This document shows positions 1-6,000 of a DNA stretch of 25,282 bases, piece by piece. The DNA is from Fidelibacterota bacterium. GTDB taxonomy: Bacteria > Fidelibacterota > Marinisomatia > Marinisomatales > S15-B10. Made by a program: the position numbers. Each line of letters starts with the position of its first letter. Positions within the stretch are counted from its first letter, which is position 1. The stretch spans positions 1 to 25,282 of the forward strand of contig JBHIAI010000012.1 in the NCBI GenBank assembly GCA_046861655.1. The letters are read 5' to 3'.

Positions 1-3000
1 AAAGAGTGTTCGTGACACGAATGCGGGTGTCGGGTCCCTTGAAGGAAAAGGTTTTCTTGTATCGCGGTGTGACCGGGAGCAACCCCACGGCCATAAGGTA
101 TTTTATTTCCAGTTCTAACCCGTTATATTCATGGCAAATCCCAATCAAGGAGTCTTCCATGAGAAAACCATTGTCTGCCATCATTTTGGTCCCTGTTCTG
201 TTGACGTTGTATAACTGCGGACCCAAGGTAACATCCCAGTCCGACGTGGATACACCCGAATACCATTACCGGGCAGGGATGCGGTACTTAGAGGATGAAG
301 ACTACGCGTCTGCCATCCGTTCCTTCCAGCGGTCGGTGGATCTGGACAAGAAATTTGCTCCAGGCTGGGCCGGGCTCGGCCTGACCACGGGCCTGAAGGG
401 CGACCTGAAAGAAGGCCGAAAACTCATGGACAAGGCCCTGGGCCAGGGCAAGAAGAACCCCGATGTTCACGTCCTGGCGGGGCGCCTCTGGATCGCCCAC
501 AGGGACGAGGGAAAAAACTGGCTGAAAAAAGCTAAAAATGAATTCGAGAGAGCCCTGAAGCTGAAACCGGGGCACGAAGCGGCTACCTACTATCTGGGCG
601 TCGCGTTCTTGCAGAACTACGATTTTTCCCTGGCTGAAAACGAGTTTCGCAAACTGGTGGAAAGAAAGGGGGAATACGCGTCCAGAGCCGATGAAATGTG
701 GTCCCTCTCCCAGAAAATAGTAAGGGCTCAACCGGGAACACTGGCGGGCAAGAAGATCGCCCTTCAGCCGAAAATCACCCGGGCCGACCTTGCTGTTCTT
801 CTCATAGAAGAGTTAAAACTCCCCGAGATTTTTGAACGTTTCATTCCCGAGAAAACGCCCGCCTTTCAGACCCCCGGCCAGATGAGAGCCCGCGCCGAAA
901 CCCCCCTTCCCCCCGATGTCCAGGGAACCTGGGCTCAGAGGTGGGTTGAAGAGGCCATGGACCTGGGCATCCTGGAACCCGACCCTGACGGCAACTTCTA
1001 TCCCTCAGAACCTCTCACCCGGGCGGGATACGCCAAGGCCGTGGCGAGAATCCTGGTGGCGGCCACCCGGGATCCCGATCTGGAAACCCGCTATTTTGGG
1101 GAATCACCTTCCAGGTTTTCCGACGTTTCCAGTAGCCACTTCGCCTACCCGGCCATGGCCCTGTGCGCGGAACGGGGCATCATGAAAGCCGATCTGGTGA
1201 CGGGCAAGTTTGAACCCGCAGGGTCGGTGGGCGGTGCGGATGCCCTCCTGATCATACGGGCGGTGCAAAACTCCCTCAGATTGACCTTCTGATCACTGAC
1301 GGTTCCATCACCAGCCCCCGGGGATATCCCGGGGCTTTTCATGGGGGTCTAGACTAGATTGGGTATCCACCCATGATTGAGATTCACCCGGTCCGGACCC
1401 GGCGGGAATTGAAAAGGTTCGTCACCTTCCCCTGGAAGATCTATCAGGGAGACCCCAACTGGGTACCCCCTCTGGTAATGGATCGCCTGAGCTTCTTCAA
1501 TCCGAGAAAAAACCCCTTCTTTCAGCATTCTGAAGCCGACTTATTCATGGCCACCGACAACGGTGAGCCGGCCGGGCGCATTGCCGCCATCCGATACAGT
1601 CGCCACCTGGAGACCCATGGTGACAGCACGGGATTTTTCGGTTTCTTCGAATGCGTCGACGATGCCACCGTGGCAAATGCCCTGTTCGAACGGGCCAGTC
1701 AGTGGGTGGCGGACCGGGGTCTCACCAGGATACGGGGTCCTATGAACTTCACCGTGAACGATGAAGCCGCCCTTCTTGTCGAGGGATTCGACCGGCCCCC
1801 TGTGGTCATGATGACTTACAATCCTCCCTATTATGAAAGACTGGTTACAGGATACGGATTCAAGAAGGCCCAGGATCTATTCGCCTACTACCTCGACGCC
1901 CCTAGATCCATCCCGGAAAGACTGGTGAGGGCCTGGGAGCTCATGGGAAAAAGAGAGGGGATCCGAATTCGCACCATCAACATGAAGGATTTCGATGCTG
2001 AGGTGGAAAGGATTCATCAGATTCATGAACAAGCCTGGGGGGAAAACTGGGGATCTGTTCCCCTGACCCGGGACGAAATCCGTAGAATCGCGAAGGACCT
2101 TAAGTTGATCCTGGATCCCGACCTGGTGTTGATGGTGGAAGACGGTGACAAACCTGTGGGGGTATCCGTGACCCTGCCGGATATCAATCAGGCATTGAAA
2201 TACGCCAACGGGCGACTGTTTCCCGCGGGGCTAGTCAAAATCCTGTGGCATAAGAGAAAGATTGACGCAGTCCGGGTCTTTATCATGGGGGTGGTGAAGG
2301 GGTACCGCCGCCGCGGCCTGGATGCGGCCATGTACTACAAAACCATGGAGGCTGCGCTGAAGAAAGGGTACAAGTGGGGGGAGATGTCGTGGGTTCTGGA
2401 ATCGAATACCCCCATGCGGCGGGTCCTGGACAGACTGGGGATTGAGGTGTATAAGACATACAGGATCTACGACAAGGAGATCTGAGTGATTCGTGGGGCG
2501 TAATTTCATAATCCGTAATGCGTAATTCGTAGAATCTGGGGTGAAGGATGGACTATGATAAGTGGGTAGAAACCGTTCCTCAGGAGATTACGAGTGATTC
2601 CTTATGGAAGTTGAAGGTATACCGTTTGAGTCTTTTCGTGTGTGATCTTGGGTGGCAAGATGTGACCAAAATATCAAAAGATAAGCGATTACTTCCATTG
2701 TCCGGCCAGTTGTACAGGGCTCTCGGATCAATCAGCGCAAACATTGCAGAAGGTTATTCACGAGGGACCGGCAAGGACCGGGCCCGATTCTATGAGTATT
2801 CCTTGGGATCTGCTCGAGAAGCACGAGACTGGTATCAGAAAAGCCGACATGCAGTTGACGGAGATGTCTTGGATCACCGCATGGGACTATTGAGCCAGAT
2901 TGTACGCATTCTGCTGACGATGATTCCCCAGCAGAGAGGGTACACCGTAAGCGAGTCCCCCGTTAAATTCGAAAGGAGCTTGAAGAAACTATTGCACGAC

Positions 3001-6000
3001 ATTCCCATTCTGTGATAATCGACGTCTTCTCCCTCGTGCGTACGAATCTACCCGACGGAATACGGATTACGAATTACGAATTACGGATTACGAACTGTAT
3101 CTTAGACGCTAGATGAAAAGTCTCGTAACAGGCGCGAGTGGTTTCATCGGCAGTCACCTGGTGGATGCCCTCCTGAAGGAAGGACATGAGGTTACCGCCC
3201 TGGTTCGCCCTACGAGTCCCATGCGGTGGCTGGAAGGTAAGCCCATTCGCCTGATGATAGGCGATGTCCGGGACCCCGATTCCCTGGAAGAAGCCGTGAA
3301 GAACCAGGATTACGTGTTCCACGCGGCGGGGAAAGTGGCCGCCCGGACATTCAGGGAGTACAACGACACCAACCACGTAGGGACCCGTAACCTCATGGAG
3401 GCCATCCTCACCCACCACCCCAACGTTGCCAAGGTCATCTACGTCTCCTCCATGAGCGCCGGAGGCCCCACCACTCCCGATCACCCCCTGACGGAAGAAG
3501 ATCCCAGCCGTCCCATCTCTCTTTACGGAAAGTCGAAGTATCTGGGAGAACAGGCGGTTCTTGAACACCAGGATCGCCTCGATGTGGCGGCCGTGCGGCC
3601 CCCCGTCGTCTACGGACCGCGGGATCAGGGAACGCTGTCCTTCTTCCGCCTGGTGAAGCGCCATATTCGACTCAACCTGGGCCTCCGGGACCGGTATGCT
3701 ACTCTGGTGCATGTGTCCGACGTGGCCAGAGCCCTTATCCTGGTGGCCACCCGGGATAATACCCGGGGCCGGTACTACTATCTGGACGATGGCAATCCCG
3801 TCACAACCTGGCTGGAGCTACAAGACCTCATCCGGGCCGCCGTGGGATCATGGACGGCCACCGTCCGGGTGCCCCTGTCTCTTCTCTTCCTCGTGTCATC
3901 CGCCGTCCACGGCCTCCAGTACGTGACCGGAAAGACCTCCTGGTTTAACTTGCCCAAGTACCGCGAACTGTCCCAGAGGGCCTGGTTGTGTGACGGGGGA
4001 AAAATCCGCCGGGAGCTCGGTTTCAAACCGGCAGTTTCCGTGGAGGAAGGGATCCCGGAAACGGCCCGGTGGTACGATCAAATGGGCTGGCTTTGAAGTG
4101 ATGAACTGGGTTCTGTCCACCATGCTTCTTTCTGTGGCTGTCGCCGGCGGCCCTAAGTTCTCAGATGAGCAGATTGTGGCCATGACGCCCCACTATTTCA
4201 AGCGCTTTCCGGACAGTCCGGAATTCCTGGGCGCCCGGGTATACCGTCATCCCCAGAGGGGAAAGGTATTCCAGGTGGACGTACGCGTCGACAGGAACCA
4301 TGAAACCGAGGGCCTGGGGTTTGTTTTCAGTGCCATGTTGAATCTGAGCCGCTATTTCCAGCGGTCCCCCGATCTTTTCGTGGCTCTTCTCCATTCCCCT
4401 AGCCGGGGGACACCTCCTGTCATCTGCACGGGAGATGCCGAGTGCACCGCCGATCACTATATCCACCGGCGGATCTCGTATGACTACTGGTACCACCGGT
4501 GTATCACGTTCGAACGCCCCTAGTCCTTAGAGATTGACCCTGAAAAGGGCATCACGTAAATTCTGTTAGCATGACTTCCCCCCACCTTTCCGGCCCGGCA
4601 CTGTATGAAAAAATCCGTCGTGATTTTTTCGGTCTGGACACCACGTACACCCTTGCAACGGGGGAAAAATCCCGGCGGATCTACCTCGATTCCACCGCCA
4701 CCACCCTGATGATGAAAGCGGCTCATGAGGTTGTGGACCGCTTCTTTCATCACTACGCTAACACACACAGCCTTCTTCACTTCGGAGCGAAAATCTCCAC
4801 CCACGAGTACGAATGGGCCCACCGCAGAATTCTATCCTTCGTAAACGCCGACCCGGAAACGTATACCTGCTTTCTCACCGGCAGCGGCACCACCGCCGGC
4901 GTAAACCGGGTGGCCCGGGTATTCCGGGACATCCGCCCCCAGAAGAAAACCGCCCTGGTTACCATCATGGAACACCATTCCAATGATCTGCCCCACCGGA
5001 AACACATGGCCCGGGTGATCCATGTACCCGTCAGCGTGACCAATGGAAGAATGGGGTGCGTGTCCCTGAAAGCGCTGGAATCCATGCTCAAAGAGAACCG
5101 GGATACGGTGAACTACGTGGCCATGACGGGCGTCAGCAACGTCACCGGCATCGTAAACCCCATTAACGAAGCGGCCGAAATCGCCCACGCCTACGATGCC
5201 CTGTTCCTGGTGGACGGCGCCCAGCTCTTGGCGCACATGCCTGTCCGGATGACTGTACCCAATCGTCCCCATCGGAATATCGATGCCCTGGTCTTCTCGG
5301 GACACAAAACCTACGCCCCGGGATCTCCCGGAGGAGTGGTCGTCAGAAAGGACCTGTTAAGCCAGGTGGAACCGATGGAAGTGGGTGGAGGCATGGTGGA
5401 ACATGTCTACAAGGAAAGCTACGAGGTGAAATCGACCTTTCCTGACAGGGAAGAGGCCGGCACACCCAACATTCCAGGGGCCATCGGACTGGCAGCGGCC
5501 ATCGATGTTCTGGACCGCATCGGTATGGATTACTTGAGGGATGAGGAAGAGGCCTTAATCCTGGACGCCCTTCACAAGCTGCAAGAAATTCCCGGTGTCA
5601 CCGTCTATGGTGAAGCCGATCCCCAGTTGTGCGAACGGACTGCCTCCATTTCGTTCAACGTGATGGGTATGGATCACGGACTGGTGGCCGCAATCCTGAA
5701 CGACTACTTCAATATCGCTGTACGGAACGAATGTTTCTGCGCCCACCCGTATGTGAAGGAAATGATCGGGAGTGACCTGACGGAAGCCATCCATGAAGAC
5801 GATCCCGAAGAACGGGAAAGGATTTATCATCTCAAGCAGGGTATGGTGAGGGCCAGTTTTGCCCTGTATTCCACCCGGGAGGACGTTTTGGCCCTGGAGG
5901 CAGCCCTCAAAGAAATCTCCGGGAAAAAGGACCGGTACCGGGCCCGGTACCACATTGACGCTCAGGGCAACTACATTCATAATTCGTTTCAGTTTGACCA

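What a model noticed while it worked through the whole genome (the two positions that open the first line are those of the whole stretch)
2490..3108. Inverted heptamer arrays bracket four-helix-bundle genes and survive as gene-less hairpins
The genome holds 94 period-7 arrays of at least eight unit types, 73 of them outside called genes. They are tied to small four-helix-bundle genes (PF05635, '23S rRNA IVP'): arrays stand on both sides of the gene as reverse complements, so the gene forms the loop of a long stem, and about a dozen gene-less inverted pairs are the empty form of the same cassette. At the bCerS-cerR site given here this genome and its congener carry different bundle genes bracketed by different heptamer types, which points to cassette turnover.
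Evidence so far: Autocorrelation scan and TRF. g1690 has TAATGCG-type units upstream and TTACGAA-type downstream; the congener's gene at the same site has TGAAAAT/TTTTCAT arms and a different protein. In four relatives, 12 of 24 PF05635 genes share >=8 inverted 7-mers between their flanks against 1.7% of 1620 genes of this genome; 10 of 24 have arrays on both sides against 0.6%. In 80 unrelated FCB loci 10 of 28 inserted bundle/GxxExxY genes have an adjacent array against 6% of random windows, and the inserts come and go between conserved genes. Gene-less TGAAAA/TTTTCA hairpins fold at C108:1582, C113:29570, C141:5794, C151:10721, C93:11733, C184:990 and others. No paper links the two.
(Added by a program. 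Inside this text positions count along the whole contig: contig position 1 is position 1 of the stretch shown here. "Call 12" and the like, gene names such as g00115 and contig names such as C1 are that model's own, and its searches are not shown. The text may have been shortened before it was handed on; [...] marks where a part breaks off. The agent that wrote the report below was given it as the finding of a first reader that could run no searches.)

Follow-up and report, generated by a model that had tools for sequence, protein, structure and literature searches.

The report
Heptamer-armed four-helix-bundle gene cassette
A small gene of unknown function sits between two mirror-image runs of about five 7-base repeats, and this package slots into the gaps between co-transcribed genes of many bacteria and is swapped between lineages, which ties an orphan ring-forming protein to the long-unexplained 7-base repeats of bacterial genomes.

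Summary
Confirmed. A TIGR02436/PF05635 gene (2548-3015) lies between inverted heptamer arms (2505-2531/3068-3094, 93%). The build is general: 272 of 306 full-length family genes from many phyla have inverted arms, against 9 of 400 ordinary genes here. Cassettes fill stop-start junctions in operon sense. Related proteins keep related heptamers at different sites. Arms peak at 4-5 units and thin out after five, matching the family's pentamer; three heptamer positions are held; stems show no G·U excess. At shared sites some cassettes are closer between families than within a genus (lateral exchange), under purifying selection.

Corrections: Warrier 2016 already reports heptamers before the S23p gene in the Coxiella rRNA intervening sequence. 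The gene-less hairpins are a lineage-specific family, absent at 5 of 5 orthologous sites in the congener, not the pre-insertion site. GxxExxY genes have about 9-nt arms, not 7.

Best reading: a transposase-free cassette whose five-subunit ring reads its own repeat on single-stranded nucleic acid. Binding and the insertion step are inferred, not shown. This scan noted the class before on other DNA (168 notes).

The parts
1373..2485 (+). Its stop codon abuts the first heptamer.
   Evidence: (PF00583, E 5e-5)
2485..2534 (+). Left (G-rich, 'F') arm: about seven degenerate CGTAATN units with one 1-base slip; best-paired part 2505-2531
   Evidence: unit reading from the sequence
2548..3015 (+). Four-helix-bundle gene, TIGR02436/PF05635, 155 aa, 'type A' subfamily; no sigma-70 promoter-like or terminator-like site in 2300-3300
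   Evidence: pLDDT 95.7, four long helices; 2GSC TM 0.84; Avd TM 0.71-0.76
3052..3094 (+). Right (C-rich, 'R') arm: 5.4 TTACGAA/TTACGGA units, reverse complement of the left arm, ending 18 nt before the next start codon
3113..4096 (+).
11816..11896 (+). Solo right arm of the same heptamer type (about 11 units), 46 nt before the start of a CDP-alcohol phosphatidyltransferase gene; preceded by GGCAGTAG-type units near 11722-11775 (a stack of two types)

Best explanation
It is a transposase-free mobile cassette: left arm of about five heptamers, a four-helix-bundle gene, right arm that is the reverse complement. SHOWN here: the build is the rule for the family; it sits in the stop-start junction of co-transcribed genes in their sense, with no promoter of its own; protein subfamily and heptamer type travel together to different sites; copies arise at neighbouring junctions, are exchanged laterally at occupied sites, stay under purifying selection, and decay by internal deletion to arms and hairpins; gene-less hairpins also appear at new junctions. 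INFERRED: the protein forms the family's five-subunit ring and wraps one arm as single-stranded nucleic acid, one heptamer per subunit, reading a G-T-x-A core plus type-specific bases, as its homologue Avd binds RNA with all five subunits. Ring binding and arm-arm pairing compete; this marks the cassette ends for copying by host enzymes and lets the insert sit in an operon without cutting off the next gene. The ORF-bearing rRNA intervening sequence is the same cassette landed in 23S rRNA, where RNase III removes it. The enzyme that performs insertion is not identified; exchange between occupied sites looks like homologous recombination within the cassette.
For: Inverted arms in 272 of 306 genes against 9 of 400 ordinary genes and 4-13% of mismatched flank pairs. 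Co-oriented with both neighbours in 123 of 146 against 52% background; arm starts a median 7 nt after the upstream stop. 87 different heptamers among 103 genes, yet pairs at 70% identity or more differ by 1.0-1.4 bases against 3.3 for distant pairs; Mantel rho -0.17, below all 500 permutations. The window's subfamily carries CGTAA/CGTGA/TGTAA units at six different junctions. Right arms: 49 with four units, 69 with five, 17 with six, of 189; the chance of going on drops to 0.37 at five and rises again; homologues are solved with five chains (homopentamer per PMC4990558 and bioRxiv 10.1101/2023.10.23.563531, passages). Within arms, positions 2, 3 and 5 vary 6-12%, the others 14-22% (138 loci). 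G·U 218 against A·C 266 mismatches in 257 stems, so no wobble excess on the mRNA strand. Lateral exchange: G155 (family f9) and G018 (f5) share a cassette at synonymous distance 0.37 with flanks at 0.96 and 0.86, while G155 and its congener G292 differ at 0.78 with flanks at 0.63 and 0.56; identity ends at the next start codon. dN/dS medians 0.07-0.15. Two 92% identical cassettes and a same-type hairpin at three junctions of one operon. GxxExxY genes have inverted arms (18 of 29) of a different unit length, so the cargo family goes with the period.
Against: No binding, expression or insertion event was observed. No target-site duplication was seen by eye at the hairpin or paralog ends, and no catalytic domain is present, so the insertion step is open. 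A residue-to-base code is only suggestive: His at model column 8 with G at position 4, and Glu versus Lys/Arg/His at column 107 with A at position 1, point the same way in three sets but reach p of only 0.05-0.4 in the held-out sets, and permuted labels give maximum z of 3.8-8.7. The most hairpin-rich type in this genome has no matching gene in a 93% complete assembly. 34 of 306 genes miss the threshold, C20 has same-direction arrays, and partial or broken genes were dropped before counting. Three of the four sets were picked by likeness to one subfamily or by top model scores, and kin are not independent. Only 4 of 77 same-site pairs show clear discordance, two of them across families, and host GC differences inflate flank distances. 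Arms mirror each other's variant order slightly (55 against 32 of 91), which allows some role for pairing or copying between arms.
Confidence: 0.58

Rival explanations
1. An intervening sequence of messenger RNA: the working part is the arm-arm stem, which RNase III cuts to release the gene and split or trim the operon transcript, as in 23S rRNA; heptamers are just a cheap way to build a stem, and the protein is a passenger or helper.
For: RNase III cuts the Coxiella element within its 28-bp stem at the first heptamer (PMC4990558 passages). Best stems here have a median of 27 bp; the window's arms pair in the predicted fold; slight mirror-order signal.
Against: No G·U excess in 257 stems; variation depends on position in the heptamer; heptamer type tracks the protein; most arrays of the window's type are solo, 35 of 37; the protein is under purifying selection.
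Confidence: 0.15
2. A host-serving plug-in regulator: the ring is a translational regulator, and the solo right arms before start codons across the genome are its regulon (the repeat-binding mobile protein proposed by MacGregor 2015). Spread is ordinary gene transfer plus selection for useful sites.
For: Solo arrays in co-oriented gaps favour the right-arm sense, 27 against 13 (p 0.04); TAACTGA arrays of that sense lie just before start codons in Beggiatoaceae (PMC4679880). The commonest array type in this genome is that of the window's gene (37 of 95). Long retention at some sites.
Against: 15 of 41 related genomes have no family match (several incomplete); array types at orthologous junctions differ between congeners; 15 of 150 listed matches carry in-frame stops; the second commonest type lacks its gene here.
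Confidence: 0.13
3. A non-autonomous retroelement: like Avd, the ring binds the cassette RNA and recruits a reverse transcriptase in trans, which copies it into junctions exposed during coupled transcription and translation.
For: Fold shared with Avd; all five Avd subunits bind one RNA stem-loop and Avd is needed for its reverse transcriptase (bioRxiv 10.1101/2023.10.23.563531); strict sense orientation and stop-codon abutment; copies cluster within one operon.
Against: The only reverse transcriptase found in this genome is on another contig with no cassette beside it; no template or variable repeat next to the window's gene; orientation and position also follow from selection alone.
Confidence: 0.1
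4. Chance and slippage: heptamer microsatellites grow in intergenic gaps, and small AT-rich genes land in the same gaps; the inverted pairing is incidental.
For: Some arrays do expand to 8-20 units; junctions also collect unrelated inserts such as an ORF6N fragment; a laid contig of the same organism is 14 nt shorter over 1747-3693, place not listed.
Against: Each gene's two arms match each other but not those of other genes (4-13% controls); converging polarity; the peak at five units; the link to protein subfamily at unrelated sites.
Confidence: 0.02

Closest known systems
ORF-bearing intervening sequences of 23S rRNA (S23p; Coxiella burnetii helix 45, Leptospira), Warrier et al. 2016, PMC4990558 (passages read)
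   Same: PF05635 gene in the loop of a terminal inverted repeat of about 28 bp, in the sense of the transcript, with three to four tandem heptamers (GACAGAT) before the start codon; sporadic distribution and lateral transfer proposed.
   Different: Here the host is a protein-coding operon, not rRNA; the paper treats the heptamers as a local feature and the protein as decaying, whereas here the build is family-wide, the heptamer type goes with the protein, and the gene is under purifying selection. RNase III cleavage is untested here.
Avd of diversity-generating retroelements (4DWL, 8UB7-8UBE; bioRxiv 10.1101/2023.10.23.563531, passages read)
   Same: Same fold (TM 0.71-0.76), pentameric barrel; all five subunits contact one RNA element, with flipped-out bases in crevices between subunits.
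   Different: No reverse transcriptase, template repeat or target gene beside the cassette; the presumed ligand is a five-fold repeat, not a unique stem-loop.
Intergenic heptamer arrays: TAACTGA in Beggiatoaceae, cyanobacteria and Bacteroidota (MacGregor 2015, PMC4679880; abstract, passages and section 23 read), GGGAATC in Xanthomonas (Rehm 2015, PMC4692102; passages), four- and five-unit arrays in Geobacter metallireducens (PMC2700814; passages); cyanobacterial STRR and LSSR (recalled)
   Same: Period 7, intergenic, often just before start codons, often as converging inverted pairs (70 cases in one Xanthomonas genome), four or five units in Geobacter; MacGregor proposes an unidentified repeat-binding protein as the mobile element.
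   Different: None of the passages names the four-helix-bundle family (0 hits for 'helix bundle' and 'S23' in the first two); here a candidate reader protein and a parent cassette are identified.
MITEs and mobile insertion cassettes (terminal inverted repeats, no transposase; general knowledge, and PMC4853749 passages)
   Same: Terminal inverted arms around a passenger or a short loop; non-autonomous short forms in many copies.
   Different: Arms are tandem degenerate heptamers of many types, tied to the cargo protein; no target-site duplication seen; no parent IS known; strong preference for stop-start junctions.
Homing elements (introns and inteins with endonucleases; general knowledge)
   Same: Fixed sites, lateral exchange at the same site, cycles of decay and renewal that keep the cargo gene under selection.
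   Different: No nuclease or splicing domain; the site lies between genes; many types can occupy one junction.

Membership tests
PF05635 / TIGR02436 four-helix-bundle family | Score above the curated cut-offs | tested here: met
   59.9 bits against 24; 52.5 against 33.8
PF05635 / TIGR02436 four-helix-bundle family | Bundle of four long helices like 2GSC and 2RLD | tested here: met
   (TM 0.84 to 2GSC)
PF05635 / TIGR02436 four-helix-bundle family | Homopentameric ring | not testable with these tools
   Both solved homologues have five chains per entry; carried over to this protein by homology only
23S rRNA intervening sequence with S23p | Lies within an rRNA gene | tested here: not met
   Flanks are protein genes; no Rfam match in the window
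23S rRNA intervening sequence with S23p | Terminal inverted repeat of about 28 bp with the ORF in the loop, in transcript sense, heptamers in the 5' arm | tested here: met
   compare
23S rRNA intervening sequence with S23p | Excised by RNase III without religation | not testable with these tools
   Needs RNA end-mapping
IS / mobile insertion cassette / MITE | Terminal inverted repeats | tested here: met
IS / mobile insertion cassette / MITE | Encodes a transposase (autonomous IS) | tested here: not met
   Only PF05635/TIGR02436-type matches
IS / mobile insertion cassette / MITE | Target-site duplication | tested here: inconclusive
   None seen by eye at hairpin and paralog ends, but the ends are blurred by degenerate units and the comparators are diverged
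IS / mobile insertion cassette / MITE | Short gene-less copies at lineage-specific sites | tested here: met
   About 12 type-B hairpins with shared ends; absent at 5 of 5 congener junctions
IS / mobile insertion cassette / MITE | A cognate transposase acting in trans | not tested
   No search was made for a transposase with matching ends
Diversity-generating retroelement (Avd) | Avd-like fold | tested here: met
Diversity-generating retroelement (Avd) | Adjacent reverse transcriptase with template and variable repeats | tested here: not met
   Neighbours are host genes; the one RVT_1 match is on contig C80
Homing element | Lateral exchange at a fixed site | tested here: met
   4 of 77 same-site pairs discordant, 2 across families
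Homing element | Site-specific nuclease or splicing domain | tested here: not met

The most novel reading that the evidence does not exclude
A new class of mobile element whose only gene product is a non-catalytic five-subunit ring that reads a 5 x 7-nt code in its own ends, with residue changes that re-programme the heptamer. The ring recruits host enzymes to copy the cassette, and gene-less hairpins in trans, into the stop-start junctions of operons. This class would be the source of most bacterial heptamer arrays, the parent of ORF-bearing rRNA intervening sequences, and the pool from which retroelements took Avd; GxxExxY genes with 9-nt arms would be a parallel class.
Probability: 0.3. Interest if true: 0.93.

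Novelty: new variant of a known kind. Interest (0 to 1): 0.77.

Why it matters
It joins three open questions: what the widespread PF05635 proteins do, why 7-base repeats are so common between bacterial genes, and where ORF-bearing rRNA intervening sequences came from. It makes them testable with one cheap experiment, binding of a small ring protein to five tandem heptamers of its own or another type. If the protein does read its arms, the family is a natural library of repeat-specific single-strand binders (87 heptamers among 103 genes here). It also matters for annotation: these arrays and the 'ribosomal S23' label mislead gene calls, and cassettes sit inside core operons.

Tried and rejected
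Sequencing runs: no RNA holder listed, so expression and processing could not be examined; the four DNA holders come from one study and may include the source. Laid contigs showed two joints that skip the cassette (2475/2478 to 3134), but from contigs about 86% alike, so these are other organisms with an empty junction and not excision. Complex prediction of four copies gave no verdict. A strict hairpin pattern found 0 matches in 5 relatives; too strict to show absence, so junctions were compared directly. An apparent A·C excess over G·U (232 mismatches of the G/T and A/C kind, p 0.007) did not repeat in the third set (82 against 73); I keep only 'no G·U excess'. The shared N-G-T-N-A-N-N consensus is partly made by rotating motifs into register; its excess over letter-shuffled motifs is modest (2.78 against 2.44, maximum 2.63 of 30), so I rely on within-arm variation instead. 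Most residue-base signals of the first set (columns 109, 114, 58, 44) failed in held-out sets. A linked reverse transcriptase was looked for and not found. A type-B gene or remnant was looked for with 217 family proteins and not found. Viral contigs gave only 1 and 2 loci. Rfam gave 0 matches and the promoter and terminator scans 0 sites. 'Addiction in cis' (arms block the next gene unless the protein is there) was considered and set low, because gene-less hairpins persist where no matching gene is found. Paper searches for a general description: 0 papers; 7 listed, none on flanking repeats in the two opened; 0. The library lacks most subscription papers (Ralph and McClelland 1993, Lin 2006, Mrazek 2007 were not seen), and no supplements were read; alignments in the supplements of PMC2700814 and PMC4679880 may bear on the claim.

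
Full report
THE LOCUS. The window is contig C170 of an unnamed 2.06 Mb genome, 93% complete. Between a GNAT-like gene ending at 2485 and an NAD-dependent reductase gene starting at 3113 lies a 155-aa ORF (2548-3015) that passes the cut-offs of TIGR02436 and PF05635. 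Its model has four long helices and matches 2GSC, 2RLD and, more weakly, Avd. The flanks are heptamer arrays that are reverse complements: 2505-2531 against 3068-3094, 27 nt, 93%. The first unit overlaps the upstream stop codon and the last ends 18 nt before the next start. No promoter-like or terminator-like site was found in 2300-3300, so the gene would be read from the operon's transcript.

THE GENOME. Period 7 is the only strong period among short arrays. With seven motif types that I defined from that list, there are 95 arrays and none in a shuffled genome; 76 lie between crude ORF calls. The window's type (A) is the commonest, 37 arrays, of which only the two around this gene form a pair. 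Solo arrays in co-oriented gaps lie in the right-arm sense 27 times and the left-arm sense 13 times. Of the four family genes, two have clear or short inverted arms (C170, C85), one is ambiguous because its unit is nearly palindromic (C129), and one has same-direction arrays (C20). No type-B gene or remnant was found.

THE SITE IN RELATIVES. Eight genomes of 41 hold the downstream gene at the threshold used, and the junction could be read in all eight. G009, G018 and G033 have 11-18 nt; G016 and G031 have 108 nt without a gene; the congener G001 has a type-B cassette with a protein barely alignable to the window's; G003, of another genus, has a type-A cassette (60% identity) followed by a short type-B-like remnant.

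GENERALITY. I scored the best ungapped match between the 200 nt upstream and the reverse complement of the downstream flank. A score of 11 or more was reached by 67 of 82 genes from the window's phylum, 71 of 78 from named genomes of many phyla plus one viral contig, 55 of 57 from metagenome and viral contigs, and 79 of 89 from phylum-wide samples: 272 of 306. Controls: 4-13% of mismatched flank pairs, 75 of 306 in direct orientation, 9 of 400 ordinary genes of this genome. Dropped before counting: matches that did not span the model, duplicates, flanks under 150 nt, and one locus from a genome flagged unpublished, on which no claim rests. Three sets lean to one subfamily or to top model scores, and kin are not independent. 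Among 146 cassettes with long flanks, 123 are co-oriented with both neighbours (52% background), the arm starts a median 7 nt after the upstream stop (112 of 137 within 30 nt), and ends a median 23 nt before the next ATG. The left arm has more G than C in 230 stems and less in 16, of 257.

PROTEIN AND REPEAT TRAVEL TOGETHER. Among 103 genes with a callable motif on both sides there are 87 heptamers; close proteins share them. The window's subfamily (20 loci in 17 of 401 genomes) sits at six different junctions, among them one that I read from the printed sequences as sufB-sufC in 11 genomes, and keeps CGTAA/CGTGA/TGTAA-type units. GxxExxY genes also have inverted arms (18 of 29 against 7%), but with no period-7 signal and units of about 9 nt.

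THE ARMS LOOK LIKE BINDING SITES. In 189 non-redundant genes the right arm has four units 49 times, five 69 times and six 17 times; the left arm 53, 49 and 14. The chance of running on dips at five (0.37 and 0.46) and then rises. Type-B arrays of this genome show 14 with five units and 1 with six. Solved homologues are five-chain rings (PMC4990558), and in the retroelement structure all five Avd subunits bind one RNA element with flipped-out bases (bioRxiv 10.1101/2023.10.23.563531). Within arms, positions 2, 3 and 5 vary about half as often as the rest, and a G varies 5% at position 2 but 14-25% at positions 1, 4, 6 and 7. Mismatches in the stems are not enriched for G·U on the coding strand (218 against 266). 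My inference from general structural knowledge: 35 bp of duplex cannot wrap a ring of this size, whereas seven single-stranded bases per subunit can.

BIRTH, EXCHANGE AND DECAY. Of 115 cassettes from relatives, 75 could be placed on 40 junctions of this genome (some placements doubtful); types are often stable at a site across families, this genome has a gene at four of the sites, a bare junction at many, and by eye a matching relic arm at several, for example C11:1262. Same-site genes are under purifying selection (median dN/dS 0.07, 0.14, 0.10, 0.15 over 16, 2, 1 and 2 unsaturated pairs). In 4 of 77 same-site pairs the cassette is far less diverged at silent sites than both flanks, twice across families; in the clearest case G155 is closer to G018 of another family (0.37) than to its congener G292 (0.78), identity stops at the next start codon, and genes are mosaic. 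Host GC differences inflate flank distances, but not this reversal. Between two congeners at 91-96% identity, genes are lost by internal deletions at short repeats with the arms left in place, one junction holds different types, and one operon has two 92% identical cassettes and a same-type hairpin at three junctions. At an ABC-transporter junction in 30 loci from one Bacteroidota genus (some paralogous), four hold cassettes of two types, nine have gaps of 2-21 nt, and many of the rest hold solo arms or hairpins of other types. At five hairpin junctions of this genome the congener has no type-B hairpin, nor does G003, where synteny is partial at two: the hairpins spread on their own. No target-site duplication was seen.

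WHAT IS KNOWN. Warrier et al. 2016 (PMC4990558; passages) describe the Coxiella 23S intervening sequence: a 28-bp stem, three to four GACAGAT heptamers before the S23p gene, RNase III cutting at the first repeat. MacGregor 2015, Rehm 2015 and the Geobacter metallireducens genome paper describe intergenic heptamer arrays, inverted pairs and four- or five-unit blocks without naming this family; MacGregor suggests an unidentified repeat-binding protein as the mobile element. Nine searches of an open-access library found no general description; subscription papers and supplements were not seen. This scan has noted the class on other DNA many times (168 notes); these are leads, and the five-unit idea, the code idea and two of the papers came from them.

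VERDICT. It works like an ORF-bearing intervening sequence moved out of rRNA, but fails that family's defining location, and it has the ends of an insertion cassette without a transposase or a visible target duplication. I file it as a new variant of a known kind. The most likely mechanism is a five-subunit ring that reads its own five-unit arm on single-stranded nucleic acid (0.58); binding, expression and the insertion enzyme are not shown. The rivals (RNase III-cut stem, host regulator, reverse transcriptase in trans) are not fully exclusive of it. Interest 0.77.

Noticed in passing
G000:C46:69076-69429 (locus L473) and L468-L497: GxxExxY (TIGR04256) genes are bracketed by their own inverted arms (18 of 29, control 7%) built of units of about 8-10 nt such as CCACAGAGA or CCACGAATT, with an A/C-rich left arm; a parallel cassette family with a different period.
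   Followed up: partly
window 11680-11900: Stack of a palindromic GC-rich element, GGCAGTAG-type units and an 11-unit solo type-A arm in one gap; laid contigs show the first two parts recur elsewhere.
   Followed up: no
G000:C141:5725-5930, C141:6480-6700, C155:1-140, C113:29500-29680: A composite of a type-A right arm followed by a type-B arm or hairpin recurs almost letter for letter, so stacks of arms are copied as blocks.
   Followed up: no
G000:C20:2212-3600: The C20 bundle gene follows two small genes that I read as a HEPN and nucleotidyltransferase pair (label from memory, no family scan) and has same-direction arrays on both sides, perhaps a stacked or rearranged cassette.
   Followed up: no
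L296:4576-4839 (G031:C4): An ORF6N-domain fragment is inserted right behind a gene-less heptamer hairpin; the congener lacks it. These junctions collect unrelated small genes.
   Followed up: partly
L084, L088, L109, L016, L013, L079, L053: Several bundle cassettes, of the same or different types, occupy successive junctions of one operon (up to four in an operon that I read as nuo), suggesting local spread or junction hot spots.
   Followed up: partly
L083 (IMG/VR contig), 534-692: A bundle gene with CGTGGTA arms sits in a viral contig beside a gene that reads like a tail sheath protein (label from memory); only 3 viral loci were found in two scans.
   Followed up: no
window 2508 and 1747-3693: Other samples of the same organism carry G at 2508, which restores pairing of that unit, and one contig is 14 nt shorter across the cassette region, possibly two units; the place was not listed.
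   Followed up: no
G000:C80:156-1467: A 437-aa reverse transcriptase that looks group II intron-like by its sequence (label from memory), next to a dnaK fragment, unrelated to the cassettes.
   Followed up: no
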